From Escherichia phage EC6: 64,000 nt of DNA. The notes under the pieces are model-generated. The model saw nothing but the letters and a program-made list of their open reading frames with translations. It was not told where the DNA came from and made no database searches. This document shows positions 1 to 40,588 of the stretch, in pieces. Positions within the stretch are counted from its first letter, which is position 1. Each line of letters opens with the position of its first letter. The stretch lies in sequence record JX560968; one strand, 5' to 3'. The position numbers were made by a program, and so were the translations under genes.

Positions 1-14
1 TAGGAGATTCTAAA

Positions 15-512
15 ATGAACAAATTTCAAGCTATCAACTATATTCGTTCCGTCAATGTCATGTCTAAACCTGTTAAAGATACCTACGAATTTCGCTGCAA
101 TGGTGTACACTTTGCAACCATCACCAAATCAGAAAACGGGGTTTATTACGTTCACCGTCGTAATGTTGCAACCGTTGTAGTCCGTCACTTTATGCAAGCT
201 GTCGCGGAACTTCTCCCGATGTTTTTGGGTCTTTACTTGGATGAGTGTAAAAACGTTCGTAACCACGTTAAAAGCCTTTTAAACGGTTATAAAATGGCTT
301 ATGAGCGTTCAATCAAGTACTTAAACAAGTTTTATAAAGCCCCTGTAAACACTGTTTCAATGGCTTATGATGCAACTGGTGATTGGGTTAACCTATCCGA
401 TGTGGAAAAGATTAAACTACATGACCAGCGTCCTGAAGGTTACTGTAAGGCTCTCGGTGAAGGTTTGACTTTCAATATCAAGAACCTAGAAAAAACCTTT
501 AAAAGATATTGA
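15..512 (+). CDS. hypothetical protein (165 aa)
   Basis: Intact ORF preceded by AGGAGA RBS; leader TAGGAGATTCTAAAATG is identical to the one at 601-617. No recognisable motif. Confidence 0.5.
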   Translation: MNKFQAINYIRSVNVMSKPVKDTYEFRCNGVHFATITKSENGVYYVHRRNVATVVVRHFMQAVAELLPMFLGLYLDECKNVRNHVKSLLNGYKMAYERSIKYLNKFYKAPVNTVSMAYDATGDWVNLSDVEKIKLHDQRPEGYCKALGEGLTFNIKNLEKTFKRY

Positions 513-863: not shown

Positions 864-901
864 TCGACGCAACGGGGCTAAATAGCCCCAGATACCTTCA
901 C

Positions 902-925
902 AGCCCCATTTAAGGGGCTTTTTTA
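902..925 (+). terminator. rho-independent terminator
   Basis: Hairpin AGCCCC/GGGGCT followed by T6; a second GGGGCT..AGCCCC palindrome lies just upstream at 874-889. Confidence 0.5.
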
Positions 926-1387
926 CGTCTATGTAATAGCCTCTATACAATCCCTTCCCTTTCCTTTCCTTTCCAGAATCTTACTAGACCTTAAAAGCAA
1001 TAACTCTATAGCTTACTCTATAACCTCTTATCAAATCAACTTAAATAAAAGCCAATAACCCCAGAAAGGGGATGGCCCATTTAAACGCTCTATAAAGCCC
1101 TATAACAGCCTTATCAACCTAACTTAAGGGATTGCATTAACTCACCTTAAAAAGCTCTTTACAGGGCTTTATAGAGGCTTAAAAGAATCTTATAAGGGTG
1201 TAAGCTTTATCATCTCGTTAGCTATCTTGTGAACTACTAAACAAGCCCCTTGTTAGTGTCTTAAAAGTATGTTATAGGGGCTATAAAGTTGCTTAAAAGT
1301 TACGTAAAAGTGGCTATAAAGTTACGTAAATGCTAGCCCCCTTAACATTTTCTTAACAATTTCTTAACAATCCCTACATAGTTATGC

Positions 1388-1431
1388 TTGTTAGTAGCTT
1401 GTTAGTAGCTTGTTAGTAGCTTGTTAGCCCC
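1388..1431. repeat. tandem direct repeat (CTTGTTAGTAG x3 plus partial)
   Basis: Read directly: cttgttagtag cttgttagtag cttgttagtag cttgttagccc. Confidence 0.8.
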
Positions 1432-2526
1432 TTGTTAAATCTCTGTTAATACCACGTAAAAACCTTGTAAGAGTCTTTGGCATAGCCTTAAAAGCCCCTG
1501 TAAAGCCCTATAAAGAGCTATCCATACAGTTGAGGGGTAAATACTAGGAAGATGCTTAAAAGAGCCTATAAAGAGTTATAGAGAGCTTTTAAGAGGTATG
1601 TTTAAGGAATCACTAAGAAAGGAAAGGGAATGATAAGACCAGAGATAGTGACCATGTTAATAGCTTGTTAAAAAGATTAAGCACTTGTTAGGAACTTGTT
1701 AATTATCTTAACAAAATAACTCTTTAAAATTAACTTGTTAGCTCTTGTTAGCCATCTGTTAAGCATCTGTAAAGACTATTCAGCACTTGTTAAGAAACTG
1801 TTACAGCCTTGTTAGTTCTGTTAAGAATCTGTTAAGACCTCTGAAGAGATGTTAAGAAGATGTAGTAACTGTTAAGAGATTGTTAATGATATTTTAAAAT
1901 TCTGCAAAGGGGGTGTTAAGGAGCTGTTAAGGGCTACCAAGCAGATATACATCTTCTACAGATATTTTTCAGTTCCTTCAAAGACCCTAAAAAACGACTT
2001 GATAGTCCTATTTTATAAAAATTTTAAAATTCTGAATAATTACCTAGACAGTCTTTTAAAAATACAGGCATAAACAGGCTTATAAGATACCTTGTTAGTA
2101 CCGTGTTAGACCTTGTGAGATAAGGTCTGTAAAGATATTCCTGTTAAGTTTGTTAAAACAGTCTATATAGAGGCTTAGTAATACCTAGTGAACACCTATA
2201 GAGGGTAACATAGCTAACCTAGAGATTAAGAGGTGTATAGGAGCTTCTAAGAGGGTGTAGAGGTATGGTTAAGGTGATTGTATAGGTTGTTAAGAAGGCT
2301 TGTTAGAAGAGTGTTTAGAAGGGCTATACAGAGGGGCTATTAAGACCACTAGATAGATACTAAGATACTATATAGTACTATATAACTATATAGAGAGTAA
2401 GATTAAGGAGGTTGTTAAGAAGGATAGATATTTTATTCACATATGATGGTGACCCAGAGGTTGGGACAACCGATAAAATTTTATAAAAATTAAAAAGCCC
2501 CCAATTAAGGAGGCTCTTAAGATATT

Positions 2527-15916: not shown

Positions 15917-15995
15917 GCTCCATTACTCCAATTGGCAGAGAGGCCAGACTTAAAATCTGTGTTATGTATCGGTTCGAATCCGATATGGAGTACCA
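15917..15995 (+). tRNA. tRNA with anticodon TAA (Leu-type anticodon) on a class-I-length scaffold
   Basis: Acceptor GCTCCAT/ATGGAGT, anticodon loop CTTAAAA, 6-nt variable loop, perfect T-arm ATCGG-TTCGAAT-CCGAT, CCA encoded. Confidence 0.45.
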
Positions 15996-16281: not shown

Positions 16282-17016
16282 ATGAAAGAGATGACAGAAC
16301 AAGGTAAGGAGATTTTTAATCTCTTAAAAACTGGTAAAGGGTTTTCTAACCCCCTTATTACTGGTGCAGCAGTTCTCGGTGGAACCGTAGCTGCCTCTAC
16401 ATCACTTGTAAGCTCTATTAGCTCTGTATCAGACCCTACAGTAAAGGATAAGCTTGTTGCTGCTGGACTTACAACAGTTCTGCTTAACAGCTTTACCACG
16501 AGTCTGACAAGCACTACATCAACTACCAAAACACTGACAGATTACGGTCAAAAGTCCATTGATGAGTTTTCATCACGTATGCAGGTAGCAAAAGGTTATT
16601 CTAATGTTATGGGTGCAGCAGGTGAACAAGTTGGCTGTACACCGTTTAGTGGTATTATGGGTGTTGCTACAGAATATGGTCAAAAAGCTATTGACACAAT
16701 TAACAGTGCACTAGACGGTGTTAATGATGTATTAAGTGACTTACAAGACGCTATTGACAAAGGTCTTGATACTATTTCTGATTTAGCTAACCAAGCTGTT
16801 AGTAAGATTAATGAAGGTATCTCGAAGATTACAGCTTATGCAGATGAAGTTGTGCAGATGATTGAAGAAGAAGCTGCCCTTATTGCAGAGTACCTTAAAA
16901 CGAATATCAATGGGTTCTTAGCAGGTATCTTACCAGACTGGTTTGATGATGCTTGTAAAACTGGTGTAATTGACACTATTGCAACACCAGAAATGAAGAG
17001 CGCATTACAGAAATAA
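16282..17016 (+). CDS. hypothetical protein (244 aa)
   Basis: ORF in the tRNA cluster; the ATG at 16282 with an AAAGG RBS is preferred over the upstream in-frame start, which overlaps tRNA-Phe. Ser/Thr-rich N-terminal region. Confidence 0.45.
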   Translation: MKEMTEQGKEIFNLLKTGKGFSNPLITGAAVLGGTVAASTSLVSSISSVSDPTVKDKLVAAGLTTVLLNSFTTSLTSTTSTTKTLTDYGQKSIDEFSSRMQVAKGYSNVMGAAGEQVGCTPFSGIMGVATEYGQKAIDTINSALDGVNDVLSDLQDAIDKGLDTISDLANQAVSKINEGISKITAYADEVVQMIEEEAALIAEYLKTNINGFLAGILPDWFDDACKTGVIDTIATPEMKSALQK

Positions 17017-17613: not shown

Positions 17614-17634
17614 TTCTATTTGCGGAGGCGCTTA

Positions 17635-19235
17635 ATGGACTTAAATGCTGTTAAGCAGAAGCGAGTGGAAGATGTTAGGAAAGTCCTAGCTGGAGAGTTG
17701 GGGCTTTCTGATGAAGTAAAAGAAATTATCAAATCATTCGGTAAAGACCCCTCTAAATTCCTTCCAACTCAAATTCTGACTTTATTAAGATACACCCCAG
17801 ACCAAGTTAGACTTATCTTCAAATTGATGACTGATAAGAACTATGTAGCCCCTCAGCCGGGTTCTCAAGAGGTCTTTTTAAATACTAATGCTGACTTGGT
17901 TCTCTATGGTGGTGCTGCGGGTGCTGGTAAGACTGCTGCATTGTTGATGGACTCTTTAAGATTTATTGAAGACCCTAACTATAATGCTGTGTATTTCCGT
18001 CGAAACACAACACAGTTACAAGGTGGTTTATGGCCTGCTGCAAAGAAACTATTTGGTAAGTTTGGTGGGGTTCCTCACGAGCAGAAGATGACTATCACAT
18101 TCCCTTCTGGGGCAACTATCAAGTTTACCTACCTAGAACTTGAAAAGCACGCTGAAGGTCATCAGGGTATTGAATACTCAGCTATTTACTTTGACGAAGG
18201 TACTCACTTCTCTGCTTCACAGATTTCATACCTACAGACTCGTCTGCGTTCTGGGGCTGAAGGTGACTCATACATGAAGATTTCCATGAACCCAGACAGA
18301 GACCACTTTATTTACGATTGGGTAGAACCATTCTTAGATGAAGAAGGTTACCCAGACCCTGAAAAGTGTGGTCGTATTCGTTGGTATGTAATGAATGATG
18401 GTGTTATGGTTTCTGATTGGGAGAGAGACAAGATTCTTGAAATGTTTCCTCTTGAGATTCCTCAAACATATACATTCATCTCTGGTACGATTGATGATAA
18501 CCCAATCCTTGACTTCTTGGAACCTAAATATCGTGGTAAGTTGGAAAACAACACCCCTGTAAACGTTGCAAGACTTCGTTTCGGTAACTGGAAGGCTCGT
18601 GCAGAAGGTTCAAACTATTGGCAAAGACAATGGTGTGAGATTGTTGATTCACTCCCAGAAGATGTGTTTGATGTCAGAGCATGGGACTTAGCAGCAACTT
18701 TACCATCTGAAATTAACCCTAACCCAGACTGGACAGCGGGTGTTAAGATGGGTAAATCTAAAAAGACGGTTGCTATTATATCATTGATGTAGTAAGATTT
18801 AGAGATAGACCCTCTGGAGTTGAAACACAAATTAATTTGACTGCTGAAAGTGACGGTAAGCGAACTGGTATTTTTATCCCTCAAGACCCAGGCGCTGCTG
18901 GTAAATCCTATGCAACATCCCTCATCAGGAAACTTGCCGAGAAAGGTTATCGCGCAAGAGCTAAACCAACAAATAAAGATAAAGTTACCCGCTTTGCGGG
19001 ATTTTCTGCTGCTTCTGAAGCTGGACTTGTAAAAGTCTTGAGAGGCAGTTGGAACGAAGCTTACTTTCAAGAACTTGAAGGCTTTTGTGGTGATGGTAAA
19101 ACTAAAGATGACCAAGTGGATGCTACCAGTGATGCTTTCAACAGTCTTAACGAAGTTAAATTATTCAAGCCACCATCAATGGGTGCTCACACAGACTTAG
19201 TGAGAGGAAACCCATATGAGGGGCTTAGACGTTGA
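17635..19235 (+). CDS. terminase large subunit; reading frame interrupted at A5 run 18760-18764
   Basis: Walker A YGGAAGAGKT in the N-terminal ATPase domain; nuclease-domain motifs (WDLA..DWTAG, then YYIIDVVRFR and DDQVDA) continue in the -1 frame from ~18762 to 19235; the ATG at 17635 has a GGAGG RBS. Confidence 0.7.
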
Positions 19236-19251
19236 TAGCTAGGTGAGAAGA

Positions 19252-20717
19252 ATGGCAGAAATTACAGAAACACAAGAAAGCTTACCACCATTTAGAATGG
19301 GTGAAGTAGGTTCTTTGGGTCTGAAGGTTAAGAATGGTAGAATCTATGAAGAACCTCGTCAGGCACTAAGGTTCCCTGAAAGTATTAAAACTTTCCAATT
19401 AATGATGCGTGACCCTGCTGTAGCAGCATCTGTAAATATTATTAAGATGTTTGTTAGAAAAGTCAACTGGAGATTCGTACCTCCAAAGGGAAAAGAGCAA
19501 GACCCTAAAATGCTTGAAAGAGCAGACTTCTTTAATTCTTTAATGGATGACATGGAGCATGATTGGGCAGATTTTATTAACTCTGTAATGTCATTCTGCA
19601 CTTATGGGTTCTGTGTTAACGAAAAGGTTTATAAGAAACGTCAGGGTAAAAAGGAAAGTACCAGTCAAAATTTGATGATGGTCTAATTGGGTGGGCTAAA
19701 TTACCAATCAGAAACCAATCGACACTTGATAAGTGGTATTTTGACGAAGACTTTAGAAAAGTTACTGGTGTTAGGCAGAATCTGAGAAATGTTTCACATA
19801 TTGCTGGAGCAATTAATCTTGGAGAAAGACCACTAACAAGAAAACTCCCACGAGCTAAATTCATGTTGTTTAAGTATGATGACGAATATGGAAACCCAGA
19901 AGGTCGTTCACCATTACTTAATGCCTATGTACCGTGGAAGTATAAAGTACAGATTGAAGAGTATGAAGCTGTTGGTGTTTCAAGAGACTTGGTAGGTATG
20001 CCAAAGATTGGTTTACCACCAGATTATCTGGATGAAAATGCAGAACCTGAAAAGAAAGCTTTCGTACAATACTGCAAAACTGTTGTTAATGATATGATTG
20101 CAAATGACAGAGCAGGTTTAATCTGGCCTAGATATATCGACCCAGATACTAAAGAGGATATTTTCGAGTTCTCATTAGTCTCTAGACAGGGTGCTAAAGC
20201 ATACGACACAGGTTCTATTATTGACAGATATTCCAAGCAGATTATGATGGCATTTATGTCAGATGTTCTTGCTATGGGTCAGTCAAAATATGGTTCATTC
20301 TCTCTTGCAGATTCTAAGACAAGCTTACTAGCAATGTCAGTAGATATTCTGCTGAAGCAAATTAAGAACGTAATTAACCGTGATTTAGTTGCACAGACTT
20401 ATGCTCTTAATATGTGGGACGATGAAGAACATGTACAAATCACATATGATGATATCGAAACTCCAGACCTTGAAGCAATTGGTTCTTATATTCAGAAAAC
20501 TGTTGCAGTAGGTGCTTTGGAAGTTGACAAAGAGCTATCTAACAAGCTTAGAGAGCATATTGGTCTTCCTCCTGCTGATGAGTCTCAGCCAGTATCTGAA
20601 AAGCTTTCTCCAAACAGTCAAAGCCGTTCAGGAGATGGTTATAAGACCGCTGGAGAAGGTACTGCAAAGACACCTTCAGCAAAAGACCCAAGCACAGCAA
20701 ATAAGGCAAATAAATAA
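19252..20717 (+). CDS. portal protein; reading frame interrupted at A5 run 19648-19652
   Basis: Position directly after terminase; the N-terminal 135 codons (frame 1) and the C-terminal ~355 codons (frame 0) are separated only by a -1 shift at GGTAAAAAGG; the combined ~490 aa is typical of portals. Confidence 0.55.
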
Positions 20718-38138: not shown

Positions 38139-39764
38139 ATGGCAGATTACAAATTGAGTCAATTAAACTCAATCGACACAATTCGTTCAGAAGACCTATT
38201 GCACATCAGAGTTAAGAAAAGACCTGAAATGTTGGGTGACGAAGACCGTAGAATGACCTATCAAGACTTCTTAGCTTCTTTCAAACTAGAAAGGTTTGTT
38301 CAGATTGCTGGGAGCACTATGACGGGGGATTTAGGTATTGTCAAGTTACTTTACGGTGGTAAGGTAGTATTTGACCCTACAGATTCTTCTGAGATTACTC
38401 TTGGGGATATTTTAAAGACTTTTAAAATCAACTCAAATGGGCTTAAACTCACTATTGCAGATGCCACAAGGTCAGCAACTGTTTATCATACTTTGAATAA
38501 ACCAAGTCCTAATGAACTTGGCATGAGAACTAATGAAGAGAATGATGCAAGATATTCAAGGCTTGCTGTTACAAATAACTTCAGTATTAGGCAAGCAATT
38601 GTAACTGATGGTGAGCAGTTAACTCTTAAGAAGGCAACCAATACAGGTGCTTCATATATTCAAGGTAGAGATGCTAATAACCAGCAAACTTGGTATGTTG
38701 GACAGGGAAATGCAAACAGTACTAATGTTTATTTGTACAATCATGCTACTGGTGCAATGTTAACCCTTGATGCAACAGCAGCATTTAACAAGTCACTTAG
38801 AATCGTTGGTCAAGTTCAACCTTCGGATTTCTCTAACTTAGATGCTAGATACTTCACTCAGACAGTCGCTAATCAGAGATTTGCACAGTTAGCTGGCAAT
38901 AATACTTTTACAGGTGCTAATACATTTAATAACTATATCAGTGTGAACTCTAATGCTGCTGCTATCGTGCTAAAAAATAAGTCTGCTAATGAGTCTTTGT
39001 ACATCCTAGCAAAAGATGTTGAAAACAATAATCTGTGGTTTATTGGTAAAGGTAGTGCAAATGACAATATCACATTTTATGATTACAAGGGCAATACTTC
39101 TATTGTATTAAACTCGTCTGGTGCTGCATTCAGCAAGACTGTAAAAATCACTGGTCAAGTCCAACCTTCAGATTGGACTAACATTGACTCTAGATATATT
39201 CCGGCAGCTACTTTGAGCAATCTTGCTAAAATTAATGTAGCTAACACATTTACCTCCCAGCAAATTATCCAAGCAAATGGTGAAGCTATTAGGCTAAAAA
39301 ACTCTTCTGAGAACTCACCATTGTATATCAGAGCACAGGACAACACTGGTGCTTATAGGTGGTATGTAGGTAATGGCTCGGGGGGTGATGATGTCACCAT
39401 CCGCAATCACAAGACAGATTGTGAGGTTATCCTATCTAGTGTCGTTGCTATTAATAAAACATTAAGCATCACTGGTCAAGTTAAACCCTCAGATTTCTCT
39501 AACTTAGATGCTAGATATTACACGCAATCTACCGCAAACTCTAGGTATATGCTTGCTTACTCTTCTGGCAGTGGTACAGAGGTGGGTGAGAGTGATGGTA
39601 TTGTTTGGAATGCTAAAACTGGTCTGTATAATGTGTATGATAAATCTGGTGGCGCAACACAGCTAGTCTACCATATGTATCAGGGTGCAAGTTCTACACC
39701 ATCTGCACAGTTTAAGTTTATCTACAGGAATGGTGGTAGTTTTTTACAGGACAGCACGAGATAG
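38139..39764 (+). CDS. tail fibre protein with three internal repeats
   Basis: 541 aa; three copies of ITGQV(Q/K)PSD(F/W)(S/T)N(L/I)D(A/S)RY plus repeated LYI(R/L)A(Q/K)D motifs. Confidence 0.6.
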   Translation: MADYKLSQLNSIDTIRSEDLLHIRVKKRPEMLGDEDRRMTYQDFLASFKLERFVQIAGSTMTGDLGIVKLLYGGKVVFDPTDSSEITLGDILKTFKINSNGLKLTIADATRSATVYHTLNKPSPNELGMRTNEENDARYSRLAVTNNFSIRQAIVTDGEQLTLKKATNTGASYIQGRDANNQQTWYVGQGNANSTNVYLYNHATGAMLTLDATAAFNKSLRIVGQVQPSDFSNLDARYFTQTVANQRFAQLAGNNTFTGANTFNNYISVNSNAAAIVLKNKSANESLYILAKDVENNNLWFIGKGSANDNITFYDYKGNTSIVLNSSGAAFSKTVKITGQVQPSDWTNIDSRYIPAATLSNLAKINVANTFTSQQIIQANGEAIRLKNSSENSPLYIRAQDNTGAYRWYVGNGSGGDDVTIRNHKTDCEVILSSVVAINKTLSITGQVKPSDFSNLDARYYTQSTANSRYMLAYSSGSGTEVGESDGIVWNAKTGLYNVYDKSGGATQLVYHMYQGASSTPSAQFKFIYRNGGSFLQDSTR

Positions 39765-40509: not shown

Positions 40510-40588
40510 TCCCTTGTTGACTGATTGTTAAGATGGTGTTAATATTCTTTATGGGTATTCTCACCATCTTGGCTGATGAGGTGATTAA

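What the first reader, a model, noticed from the sequence alone, without database searches (positions are those of the whole stretch)
864..2526. 1.66-kb coding-free region carrying ~33 copies of a TGTTA(A/G) core plus tandem and inverted repeats
This is the largest non-coding stretch in an otherwise compact genome. It holds dense, irregularly spaced copies of CTTGTTAG / CTGTTAAG / TTGTTAAG on both strands, a perfect tandem triplication (1388-1431), repeated GCTATAAAGTT units (1277-1330), a CCTTTC microsatellite and ACTATATA repeats. The density looks like an array of protein-binding sites: replication origin or iterons, a packaging or partition-like site, a binding-site sink for a regulator, or a cluster of phage-specific promoters. 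The motif GCTTGTTAG loosely resembles MotA-box-like middle-promoter elements, but that is speculative.
Basis: seen in the sequence. Interest (0 to 1): 0.7.

Follow-up and report, generated by a model that had tools for sequence, protein, structure and literature searches.

The report
Phage genome ends with repeat arrays
This gene-free stretch is the place where a Felix O1-like phage genome begins and ends: a ~600-bp terminal repeat and its flanks, packed with evenly phased TGTTA protein-binding sites that look like sites for the host regulator ArcA.

Summary
In detail: 34 TGTTA(A/G) copies lie in 864-2526, against 3.3 expected, and no similar cluster occurs elsewhere in the 64 kb. However, 30 of the 34 are on one strand.

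The window is a Felixounavirus. End-resolved relatives place the physical left end at 1336 and the right end at 1938. So 1336-1938 is the direct terminal repeat (DTR), and the 1.66 kb is the concatemer junction, closed off by convergent terminators. The existence of this DTR is already published, with ends mapped experimentally in UAB_Phi87. The repeat arrays were not described in the papers I could find and read.

New here:
- The sites are helically phased (11-bp steps, 10.3-bp overall period).
- They abut both cut sites as a ~20-bp inverted repeat.
- They are conserved across four genera.
- An outer, oppositely oriented CTCTATA/TATAGAG set flanks them.

Core, orientation and spacing match host ArcA-P boxes. 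Two boxes 6 bp from the left end outscore all 115 E. coli training boxes. Flanking bases fit ArcA poorly, and unrelated phages carry similar arrays, so the binder is unresolved.

Most likely function: a nucleoprotein scaffold for end recognition, cutting and DTR duplication. The MotA-promoter idea is not supported, and an origin is not supported but not excluded.

The parts
902..925 (+). Intrinsic terminator that closes the rightward gene block ending at 863.
   Evidence: Stem 902-919 followed by a T run. The same position is annotated as a terminator in ASO1A and Moogle.
864..1335 (.). Non-coding flank that precedes the right-hand copy of the terminal repeat in the virion (unique DNA at the right end). 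It is rich in CT(A/T/G)TAAAG and CTTAAAAG words and holds a 33-bp repeat at 1260-1330.
   Evidence: ORF-free. Fourteen CTNTAAAG-type words lie on the + strand of the region against 3 on the - strand. Repeats. The last ~22 bp before the cut (AAAGTTACGTAAAnGCTA) are nearly invariant in three genera.
941..1094 (+). Outer array: CTCTATA x4. It is mirrored by TATAGAG on the far side of the repeat.
   Evidence: CTCTATA occurs 4 times in the region and once in the other 62 kb. The left/right opposite orientation is conserved in all 11 genomes compared.
1336..1938 (.). Direct terminal repeat (603 bp by homology). The left physical end is at 1336 and the right physical end at 1938.
   Evidence: Exact terminal repeats of 581, 591 and 570 bp in D4, ZX4221 and HP1 align to 1336..1938. 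The 'DTR' feature annotated in UAB_69 maps to 1334-1940. The UAB_Phi87 DTR of 608 bp was measured by Bal31 digestion plus run-off sequencing. Pr103Blw has a 581-bp DTR.
1341..1371 (-). Three TGTTAA repeats at 11-bp spacing, in inverted orientation, starting 6 bp from the left end. Left arm of the terminal inverted repeat.
   Evidence: They score 22.8 and 22.6 bits on the ArcA-box matrix, above all 115 training boxes (maximum 21.6). Retained in all 10 relatives with scores of 17.2-23.6 bits. Inverted repeat I8: 1339-1358 / 1914-1933.
1386..1449 (+). Six TGTTA(G/A) repeats at exact 11-bp spacing. The first part is the perfect tandem GCTTGTTAGTA x3.8.
   Evidence: Copy number varies: the window has two units that none of the 10 relatives has. 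These boxes score only 9.6-10.5 bits on the ArcA matrix, except 1432 at 17.9 bits.
1487..1590 (+). Central cluster of CTTAAAAG, CTGTAAAG and CTATAAAG words inside the repeat. It is inverted relative to 1150-1191.
   Evidence: (I2, I3, D4-D6).
1655..1930 (+). Sixteen co-oriented TGTTA(A/G) repeats, mostly as 11-bp pairs, ending 8 bp from the right end. The last two form the right arm of the terminal inverted repeat. One - strand copy (1708) lies among them.
   Evidence: Positions and spacings. Phase 10.3 bp, 1 of 5000 random placements. Eleven of these 16 sites are retained in at least 4 of 5 genomes of other genera. ArcA-matrix scores are 10-17.9 bits.
1939..2526 (.). Non-coding flank that follows the left-hand copy of the repeat in the virion (unique DNA at the left end). 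It starts with the invariant AAGCAGATATACA and includes an AT-rich palindromic stretch at 2009-2042.
   Evidence: AAGCAGATATACA is also conserved in phiEa21-4.
2093..2156 (+). Four further TGTTA(G/A) repeats outside the terminal repeat.
   Evidence: Sites 2093 and 2104 are conserved in other genera.
2166..2395 (-). Outer array in the opposite orientation: TATAGAG x3 (the reverse complement of CTCTATA) plus the ACTATATAG repeats.
   Evidence: The arrangement is conserved in three genera.
2493..2518 (-). Intrinsic terminator that closes the leftward gene block ending at 2527.
   Evidence: Ten-pair stem followed by a T run. Annotated as a terminator in ASO1A and Moogle.

Best explanation
The region is the concatemer junction of a Felix O1-like myovirus (Ounavirinae).

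Shown by homology to end-resolved relatives, confidence about 0.95:
- 1336-1938 is the short exact direct terminal repeat.
- 864-1335 is the unique DNA next to the right end, and 1939-2526 is the unique DNA next to the left end.
- Terminators on both sides keep the two convergent gene blocks from transcribing into it.

Inferred, confidence about 0.5: the TGTTA(A/G) copies are binding sites for a protein that binds head-to-tail on one face of the helix. The 11-bp pairs and the 10.3-bp overall phase point to this. Bound protein would turn the terminal repeat into a nucleoprotein scaffold.

The two cut sites sit next to oppositely oriented copies of the motif. Both virion ends therefore read inward as (G)CCC(CC)TTAACA-N4-CTTAACA. 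This suggests one recognition-and-cleavage machine acts in mirror orientation at 1335|1336 and 1938|1939. From general knowledge of T7-type packaging, the single junction copy of the repeat would then be duplicated by fill-in or strand-displacement synthesis.

The long co-oriented array just upstream of the right cut may act as an orientation-dependent stop-and-cut signal for a terminase arriving from the left.

The binder is unknown. It could be an unidentified phage protein such as a small terminase, or host ArcA-P (see the rivals).
For: Identity of the region:
- The window is 88-92% identical to Felixounavirus genomes across the region.
- Three independently deposited genomes with exact terminal repeats have ends that align to 1336 and 1938, with identical terminal nucleotides.
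- At least seven more records appear to start at the same point, judged from the position of the flanking gene.
- The UAB_69 'DTR' feature maps to 1334-1940.
- The ends of UAB_Phi87 were mapped experimentally (PMC4837284). PhageTerm reports a 581-bp DTR in Pr103Blw.
- Transferring the boundaries to phiEa21-4 by homology predicts a 439-bp repeat. That equals the 439 bp reported for another Kolesnikvirus.

The arrays are functional rather than chance:
- 34 copies against 3.3 expected, and unique in the 64 kb.
- Phasing is reached by 1 of 5000 random placements.
- Number, orientation and spacing are kept in Felixouna-, Susp-, Moogle- and Kolesnikvirus.
- Inside the repeat, motif columns are 0.83 conserved against 0.71 for spacers.
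- The non-coding region is 76% identical in nucleotides to Moogle, while the product of the adjacent gene is only about 50% identical in amino acids.

Link to cutting:
- The inverted repeat 1339-1358 / 1914-1933 lies at both boundaries.
- The cut-site flanks are nearly invariant.
- TerL is present in the window.

Precedent: the T7 160-bp repeat also carries, and is flanked by, one-orientation arrays of CCTAAAG/CATAAAG.
Against: - No reads or virion DNA of this particular phage were available. The ends are transferred by homology.
- One paper calls a Felixounavirus (SEP1) a headful packager with heterogeneous ends, against the other reports.
- No small terminase or other binder was identified.
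- The role of the T7 arrays themselves has, to my knowledge, never been settled, so the analogy carries little mechanistic weight.
- The cut positions differ relative to the motif: 6 nt before TTAACA at the left end and 8 nt at the right end. Simple two-fold symmetry is therefore imperfect.
- The array could serve another function located in the repeat, such as replication, end protection or regulation.
Confidence: 0.6

Rival explanations
1. The TGTTA array is a landing pad for the host response regulator ArcA-P. The phage would recruit this redox-sensing, OmpR/PhoB-type winged-helix protein to its genome ends. Possible roles are an architectural cofactor (as IHF serves lambda cos, or ArcA serves Xer recombination at psi; both from general knowledge), end protection, an anaerobiosis-dependent switch, or a sponge that titrates ArcA-P.
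For: Published ArcA-P sites are direct repeats of a 10-bp element with core 5'-TGTTA-3'. They have 11-bp centre-to-centre spacing, 2-5 repeats per site, and further repeats at 22 bp (PMC3798270 and PMC4173790).

I built a matrix from 115 published ArcA boxes and scanned the window:
- Six to seven boxes of 15 bits or more lie in the region, against 0.12 expected from the region's own composition and 3-4 in the other 62 kb; one box sits exactly at 15.0 bits, so the count depends on rounding.
- The three-repeat site 6 bp from the left end scores 22.8 and 22.6 bits, above every training box.

Across 10 relatives, substitutions in aligned boxes cost 1.25 bits, against 7.9 bits expected for random substitutions. 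Some boxes improve, for example 14.7 to 22.6 bits in Moogle.

The Erwinia phage phiEa21-4 has six boxes of 18-20.5 bits in its predicted repeat, including typical ArcA variants such as TGTTGC and TGTAAC.

All hosts recorded for these phages are Enterobacterales, an order in which ArcA is, from general knowledge, well conserved. No ArcA homologue is detectable in the window.
Against: Flanking bases fit ArcA poorly:
- G follows TGTTA in 12 of 34 phage sites but in only about 3% of ArcA boxes, and several of these G's are conserved across genera.
- C precedes the core in 7 of 34 sites, against 3% in ArcA boxes.
- G follows TGTTAA in 15 of 22 sites, against 8%.
- Spacers are not AT-rich.
- The tandem array scores only 9.6 bits.

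Unrelated uncultured phage contigs, one weakly similar to a Bacteroides phage, carry TGTTAA arrays at 11 bp. Non-ArcA binders with this geometry therefore probably exist.

From general knowledge, these phages plaque aerobically, when little ArcA-P is present. No paper in the searched library links ArcA with Felix O1-like phages. The ArcA match was noticed after seeing the motif, so it is a post hoc comparison.
Confidence: 0.27
2. The arrays are iterons of a replication origin located in the terminal repeat. A phage initiator would bind the phased repeats and open the adjacent AT-rich DNA.
For: - The repeats are directly repeated and helically phased.
- AT-rich palindromic stretches lie at 2009-2042 and 2474-2490.
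- The region is 35% GC against 39% for the window.
- In the unrelated contigs L032 and L075, similar palindromic TGTTAA arrays lie in non-coding DNA; a weak blastn match elsewhere in L032 falls on a phage gene annotated as DNA helicase.
Against: - The three flanking ORFs scanned have no Pfam match to an initiator, or to anything else.
- There is no DnaA-box cluster: one perfect box in the region, and the window-wide count is below the shuffle mean.
- GC skew follows gene orientation only.
- The polymerase and primase-helicase genes lie 47-53 kb away.
- The arrays hug the two cleavage sites with mirror symmetry. Packaging explains that; an origin does not.
Confidence: 0.1
3. The motifs are phage-specific promoter elements (MotA-box-like) or a cluster of promoters or small RNA genes.
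For: - GCTTGTTAG loosely resembles the T4 MotA box.
- A few weak sigma-70-like matches occur in the region, 11 against 7.1 +/- 2.5 in shuffles.
- One three-repeat TGTT site overlaps a promoter-like TTGACT-17-TAATAT at 40513-40545.
Against: - The motif is confined to one locus. No other 500-bp stretch has more than 4 copies.
- The locus has no downstream genes and is bracketed by inward-facing terminators.
- There is no Rfam match with E below 0.1.
Confidence: 0.03

Closest known systems
Concatemer junction of phage T7: a 160-bp terminal repeat with arrays of CCTAAAG-type short repeats
   Same: - A short exact terminal repeat in a non-coding stretch.
- The repeat and its flanks carry many one-orientation copies of a 6-8-bp word.
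- The window's second word family (CTATAAAG, CTGTAAAG, CTTAAAAG) even resembles the T7 words CCTAAAG, CATAAAG and CTTAAAG.
- Words such as CCTATAGAG and CTTAGAGAGGG on the T7 right flank resemble window 2160-2260.
   Different: - The main motif is different (TGTTAR).
- The repeat is nearly four times longer.
- Strict 11-bp phasing and an inverted-repeat arrangement at the two cut sites are seen here.
- In T7, maturation is coupled to the phage's own RNA polymerase pausing at the junction. No such polymerase is reported for Felix O1.
- Both terminal gene blocks here are transcribed toward the ends.
ArcA-P binding sites of E. coli (ArcA box; Park et al. 2013, Park and Kiley 2014)
   Same: - Core TGTTA.
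- Direct-repeat orientation.
- 11-bp centre-to-centre spacing, with extra repeats at about 22 bp.
- Matrix scores within, and in two cases above, the range of ChIP-defined boxes.
   Different: - Natural sites have 2-5 repeats and mostly overlap promoters. Here there are 26 repeats in 603 bp, at genome ends and with no promoter.
- The flanking-base preferences differ, with G after the core and C before it.
Phage P1 pac site and lambda cosB (from general knowledge, not tested here)
   Same: Clusters of a short repeated element flank a terminase cleavage site and assemble the recognition subunit, with or without a host bending protein. In P1 the element is the TGATCA/G hexamer; in lambda it is the R sites plus IHF.
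   Different: - Those are headful (pac) and cohesive-end (cos) systems with about 100-200-bp sites.
- Here there are two cut sites 603 bp apart bounding a repeat that must be duplicated.
- The binder here is unknown.
Already described terminal repeats of Felix O1-like phages (UAB_Phi87 608 bp; Pr103Blw 581 bp; GenBank 'DTR' and 'repeat_region' features)
   Same: It is the same element at the same genomic position.
   Different: Those reports give only length and position. The Felix O1 genome paper and the UAB_Phi87 paper do not describe the motif arrays, the phasing or the inverted termini.

Membership tests
Short exact direct terminal repeat of a T7-type (fixed-end) packaging phage | The same sequence is present once at each end of the virion DNA. 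| tested here: met
   Exact end duplications of 581, 591 and 570 bp in D4, ZX4221 and HP1 align to window 1336-1938. For the window's own phage this is inferred by homology. Experimental mapping exists for UAB_Phi87.
Short exact direct terminal repeat of a T7-type (fixed-end) packaging phage | The ends are unique and not permuted. | tested here: met
   Identical terminal nucleotides in three independent records. At least seven further records appear to start at the same point. The UAB_69 DTR maps within 2 bp. One dissenting headful call exists for SEP1.
Short exact direct terminal repeat of a T7-type (fixed-end) packaging phage | The large terminase groups with terminases of DTR phages. | not tested
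   TerL is present at 17620-19235. Its clustering with a Felix O1 DTR group is reported in PMC4837284. I built no tree.
T7-like short-repeat arrays beside the terminal repeat | Many copies of a 6-8-bp word, in one orientation, in and next to the repeat, in non-coding DNA. | tested here: met
   for the window; for T7.
T7-like short-repeat arrays beside the terminal repeat | The same word as T7 (CCTAAAG), or demonstrable common descent. | tested here: not met
   The main word is TGTTAR. Only the secondary CTNTAAAG family resembles the T7 word.
ArcA-P binding site (ArcA box) | Direct repeats with core TGTTA at 11-bp centre-to-centre spacing. | tested here: met
   Twelve of 29 successive gaps are 11 bp, with runs of 3 and 6 repeats.
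ArcA-P binding site (ArcA box) | Matrix score within the range of ChIP-defined boxes (9.6-21.6 bits with my matrix). | tested here: met
   Twenty-nine boxes of 9 bits or more, seven of 15 bits or more, and two at 22.6-22.8 bits lie in the region. Expected number at 15 bits or more is 0.12.
ArcA-P binding site (ArcA box) | Flanking preferences: A/T before the core, A>C>T with almost no G after it, and an A/T-rich spacer. | tested here: not met
   G follows the core in 12 of 34 sites, C precedes it in 7 of 34, and G follows TGTTAA in 15 of 22. The preferences are met only by the left-end triple site and by the left-half sites of phiEa21-4.
ArcA-P binding site (ArcA box) | Phosphorylation-dependent binding by ArcA in vitro or in vivo. 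| not testable with these tools
   This needs EMSA, footprinting or ChIP.
Iteron-type replication origin | Iterons, plus an AT-rich unwinding element, plus a cognate initiator gene and/or DnaA boxes nearby. | tested here: inconclusive
   Phased repeats and AT-rich stretches are present. There is no Pfam-recognisable initiator in the three flanking ORFs scanned and no DnaA-box cluster. Skew is uninformative.
T4 MotA-dependent middle promoters | A MotA box about 30 bp upstream of many middle-gene starts, together with a -10 element; requires MotA and AsiA. | tested here: not met
   The motif is confined to one gene-free locus between terminators. [quoted passage not shown]

The most novel reading that the evidence does not exclude
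The terminal repeat of Felix O1-like phages is a conserved, very dense array of binding sites for the host redox regulator ArcA-P, including a three-repeat site stronger than any chromosomal one just 6 bp from the DNA end. These gut phages would couple something that happens at their genome ends to the oxygen and respiratory state of the host cell. Candidates are end protection after injection, concatemer cutting and packaging, replication, or titration of ArcA-P away from host promoters.
Probability: 0.25. Interest if true: 0.8.

Novelty: new member of a known kind. Interest (0 to 1): 0.5.

Why it matters
For genome annotation this is mostly housekeeping. The 'mystery' gap in Felix O1-like genomes is the concatemer junction, and the conserved flanks TGCTA|GCCCCCTTAACA and GGGCTACC|AAGCAGATATACA let the true ends be placed by eye in the 250-odd deposited genomes. 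Many of those are opened arbitrarily.

Beyond that, how fixed-end phages recognise both borders of a terminal repeat and duplicate it is, to my knowledge, still poorly understood even for T7. Here the cis-elements are unusually legible. They are phased, mirror-symmetric at the cuts, layered (an inner TGTTA set and an outer CTCTATA set) and conserved over four genera. That makes the system directly testable.

If the binder is ArcA, it would be a new type of host-factor dependence, tying a therapeutic and diagnostic phage group to anaerobiosis in the gut.

Tried and rejected
- Rfam at permissive thresholds: only two chance-level matches.
- Sigma-70 promoter scan: not clearly above shuffles.
- DnaA boxes: no cluster.
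- GC skew: mirrors gene orientation only.
- Search for a phage-encoded ArcA-like protein in the window by tblastn and phmmer: nothing.
- Search for a small terminase or other DNA binder upstream of TerL with PHROGs, Pfam and PDB sequence search: only DUFs and coiled-coil noise.
- Shared proteins between the window and the unrelated contigs that carry TGTTAA arrays: none.
- Identity of those contigs: L075 has no match, and L032 has only a weak Bacteroides-phage match.
- Supplementary essentiality data for intergenic insertions in the Felixounavirus Bas63 (PhageMaP): not held.
- Literature searches for ArcA together with Felix O1-like phages: nothing relevant.
- BPS15Q2 was dropped as an end reference. 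Its record starts 14 nt left of the consensus end and carries no end duplication.
- Other response-regulator motifs were considered from memory only: PhoP TGTTTA, PmrA CTTAAT, TorR CTGTTCATAT, CpxR GTAAA. All fit worse than ArcA.
- The T7 RNA polymerase pause signal ATCTGTT occurs at about 1754 and 1827 (read). I treat this as coincidence, because no T7-like polymerase is known for these phages.
- I did not compute DNA curvature, because I could not verify the wedge parameters.
Full report
**1. What is there**

The stretch 864-2526 has no ORF of 30 aa or more between 951 and 2526 in any frame. It lies between a + strand gene ending at 863 and a - strand gene ending at 2527. The flanking transcription is therefore convergent. 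Each side has an intrinsic-terminator hairpin, at 902-919 on the + strand and 2518-2493 on the - strand.

TGTTA(A/G) occurs 30 times on the + strand and 4 times on the - strand. Dinucleotide shuffles of the region give 3.3 +/- 1.8 copies, and no other 500-bp stretch of the 64 kb has more than 4. CTTGTTAG occurs 11 times inside and once outside on the + strand.

The named sub-repeats are all confirmed. These are the 11-bp tandem at 1386-1427, the 33-bp repeat at 1260-1330, CCTTT x4.4 at 953-974 and ACTATATAG at 2366-2394.

The copies are overwhelmingly co-oriented. Their spacing is also regular: 12 of 29 successive gaps are 11 bp. The 16 sites at 1655-1930 are phased at 10.3 bp, with resultant 0.68, a value reached by 1 of 5000 random placements.

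**2. What the region is**

The window is a Felixounavirus, a Felix O1-like myovirus of about 88 kb. The region is 88-92% identical to more than 190 deposited genomes, and most of them annotate nothing there.

Several records begin inside the query, at query position 473. I fetched both ends of three such genomes.
- D4, ZX4221 and the Mooglevirus HP1 carry exact terminal duplications of 581, 591 and 570 bp.
- Their left ends align to window 1336 and their right ends to window 1938.
- Their terminal nucleotides are identical: 5'-GCCCCCTTAACA... at the left end and 5'-GGTAGCCCTTAACA... on the bottom strand at the right end.

Other evidence agrees.
- HP1 annotates the duplication as repeat_region.
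- UAB_69 annotates a 618-bp 'DTR' that maps to window 1334-1940.
- At least seven further records place the flanking gene about 1.2 kb from their start, so they appear to begin at the same point.
- UAB_Phi87 was shown by Bal31 digestion and run-off sequencing to have 608-bp direct terminal repeats (PMC4837284).
- Pr103Blw has 581 bp by PhageTerm.
- The original Felix O1 paper only inferred short terminal repeats from genome size and does not describe these arrays.
- One paper calls SEP1 a headful packager. It is the outlier.

I conclude that 1336-1938 is the direct terminal repeat (DTR). The 1.66-kb gap is then the concatemer junction. In the virion, 864-1335 adjoins the right copy of the repeat and 1939-2526 adjoins the left copy.

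**3. Anatomy of the junction**

Twenty-two + strand and four - strand TGTTAR copies lie inside the repeat.
- Three - strand copies at 11-bp spacing (1341-1371) begin 6 bp from the left end.
- The last two + strand copies (1914, 1925) end 8 bp from the right end.
- Together these form a 20-nt, 85% complementary inverted repeat, 1339-1358 / 1914-1933. Both virion termini therefore read inward as CCCTTAACA-N4-CTTAACA.

The sequence around both cuts is nearly invariant in three genera. The flanks are AAAGTTACGTAAAnGCTA|GCCCCC on the left and GGGCTACC|AAGCAGATATACA on the right.

A second word family, CT(A/T/G)TAAAG and CTTAAAAG, fills 990-1330 and 1487-1590, with 14 copies on the + strand and 3 on the - strand.

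A third family forms an outer mirror pair. CTCTATA x4 lies at 941-1094 and its complement TATAGAG at 2166-2395. That is 9 copies in the region against 4 in the other 62 kb, and the arrangement is the same in all 11 genomes compared.

The junction is thus a layered, quasi-palindromic structure centred on the repeat.

**4. Conservation**

Felixounavirus, Suspvirus and Mooglevirus genomes keep 19-30 + strand copies and 4-6 - strand copies, with the same 11- and 20-bp gaps. Inside the repeat, motif columns are 0.83 conserved in the other genera against 0.71 for spacer columns.

The whole non-coding region is about 76% identical to Moogle in nucleotides. The product of the adjacent gene is only about 50% identical in amino acids.

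The 11-bp tandem array varies in copy number. The window has two units that none of the 10 relatives has.

The distant Erwinia phage phiEa21-4 (Kolesnikvirus) has a syntenic 1.19-kb gap between convergent genes. It also carries the array: 15 + strand and 9 - strand copies, with TGTTAAGA seven times. It has recognisable homologues of both cut-site flanks. Transferring the boundaries gives a predicted 439-bp repeat. That is exactly the length PhageTerm gave for another Kolesnikvirus (PMC8928762).

Its outer-flank word is different, however. It is CTTCTAA(G/A), about 12 copies, all in one orientation. The TGTTA family is therefore constant across the subfamily, while the flank family changes with lineage.

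**5. Who reads TGTTA?**

The geometry is direct repeats in 11-bp pairs on one helical face. From general knowledge, that is the hallmark of winged-helix regulators of the OmpR/PhoB family binding head-to-tail.

The specific match is host ArcA-P. Its published site is a direct repeat of ATGTTAAAAA with core TGTTA at 11-bp spacing, 2-5 repeats per site, with further repeats at 22 bp.

I built a matrix from 115 of the 128 boxes in Table S3 of Park et al. and scanned the window.
- The region holds 29 boxes of 9 bits or more and 7 of 15 bits or more. The rest of the window has 4 of 15 bits or more.
- A composition-matched Markov model expects 0.12 boxes of 15 bits or more in the region.
- The left-end triple site scores 22.8 and 22.6 bits, above the best training box at 21.6.
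- In relatives, substituted boxes lose only 1.25 bits against 7.9 bits for random substitutions, and some gain.
- phiEa21-4 has six boxes of 18-20.5 bits.

Evidence against ArcA:
- G follows the core in 12 of 34 sites, against 3% of ArcA boxes, and is often conserved.
- C often precedes the core, G follows TGTTAA in 15 of 22 sites, and spacers are not AT-rich.
- The perfect tandem array scores only 9.6 bits.
- A scan of viral contigs for three TGTTAA at 11-bp spacing found Ounavirinae, but also unrelated contigs with palindromic TGTGTTAA arrays (L032, L075, L030, L123). L032 is weakly similar to a Bacteroides phage. Other binders with this geometry therefore probably exist.
- No ArcA-like protein is detectable in the window.
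- No small terminase or winged-helix protein was recognisable near TerL.
- I found no paper connecting ArcA and these phages.

I therefore leave the binder open, at roughly 0.25-0.3 for ArcA and somewhat more for an unidentified phage protein.

**6. How it most likely works**

Shown: the position of the ends, the mirror arrangement of motifs at the two cuts, the phasing, the conservation and the insulation by terminators.

Inferred: replication yields concatemers with one copy of the repeat per junction, as established for T7-type phages (general knowledge). Protein bound to the phased sites bends or wraps the repeat and marks its two borders. The terminase complex, or an associated nuclease, cuts at 1335|1336 and 1938|1939 in mirror orientation. 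The repeat is then duplicated by fill-in or displacement synthesis, so each packaged genome receives a copy.

The 16 co-oriented sites just upstream of the right cut could serve as an orientation-dependent braking and termination signal.

T7 offers the nearest precedent. Its 160-bp repeat contains, and is flanked by, one-orientation CCTAAAG/CATAAAG arrays, and its right flank has words resembling window 2160-2260. To my knowledge, the function of the T7 arrays was never firmly established.

**7. Rivals**

- A replication origin is not excluded. The repeats are iteron-like and AT-rich stretches are present. But it lacks an initiator gene, DnaA boxes and skew support, and it does not explain the symmetry at the cuts.
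- Promoter or MotA-type readings fail, because the motif occurs nowhere else and nothing lies downstream.
- There is no Rfam family match.

**8. Novelty and score**

The existence and rough size of the terminal repeat in this phage group are published, and some GenBank records annotate it. In that respect the finding is ordinary.

The papers I could find and read do not describe the dense, phased, mirror-symmetric TGTTA array, the outer CTCTATA/TATAGAG pair, their conservation over four genera, or the quantitative match to ArcA boxes.

I rate it a new member of a known kind, namely short-repeat arrays at the concatemer junction of a fixed-end phage. Interest is 0.5, driven by the testable ArcA reading.

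Noticed in passing
window 18759 and 19647: The large terminase (17620-18792 plus 18837-19235) and the portal gene (19243-19686 plus 19863-20717) are each split by a frameshift. Against phage SeKF_63, both are single-A deletions in A6 runs. These are probably homopolymer sequencing errors, which suggests the assembly is not error-free.
   Followed up: yes
window 40513-40545: Three TGTT(G/A)A repeats at 11-bp spacing (ArcA-matrix scores 16.7 and 15.0 bits) overlap a promoter-like TTGACT-17-TAATAT. The site lies just after the tail-fibre gene and upstream of the small genes annotated as holin in relatives. It could be an ArcA-type operator on a lysis-gene promoter.
   Followed up: partly
L020 (phiEa21-4) 16590-16920: The flank before the predicted terminal repeat carries about 12 one-orientation copies of CTTCTAA(G/A), in place of the CT(A/T/G)TAAAG words of the window. 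This flank word family changes with phage lineage, while TGTTA stays constant.
   Followed up: partly
L032 6710-6960; L075 12657-12880; also L030 13930-14200 and L123 480-740: Unrelated uncultured viral contigs carry palindromic arrays of (TG)TGTTAA at 11-bp spacing in non-coding DNA. L032 and L075 share several proteins with each other but none with the window. L032 is weakly similar to a Bacteroides phage.
   Followed up: partly
L141 (T7 39600-39760) versus window 2160-2260: The unique DNA beside the T7 right terminal repeat contains words such as CCTATAGAG, CTTAGAGAGGG and CCTATGGAG. They resemble CCTATAGAGGG, TTCTAAGAGGG and CTATATAGAGG in the window's left-end flank. Whether this is shared mechanism, a shared host factor or coincidence is unexplained.
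   Followed up: no
window 955-968 and 1617-1630: The CCTTT microsatellite outside the repeat has a perfect 14-nt inverted partner (GAAAGGAAAGGGAA) inside the repeat. The microsatellite itself is poorly conserved in other genera (0.31).
   Followed up: no
window 10354-11769 and 11934-15995: A 471-aa protein matching PHROG 850 ('RNA-binding protein') lies directly upstream of a cluster of 20 tRNA genes. This fits the Ro60-like gp130 next to the tRNA genes described for the Felixounavirus Bas63 in the PhageMaP preprint.
   Followed up: partly
L009/L010 (BPS15Q2, KX405003): This record starts 14 nt to the left of the consensus left end and has no terminal duplication, so its deposited ends are probably not the physical ones.
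   Followed up: partly
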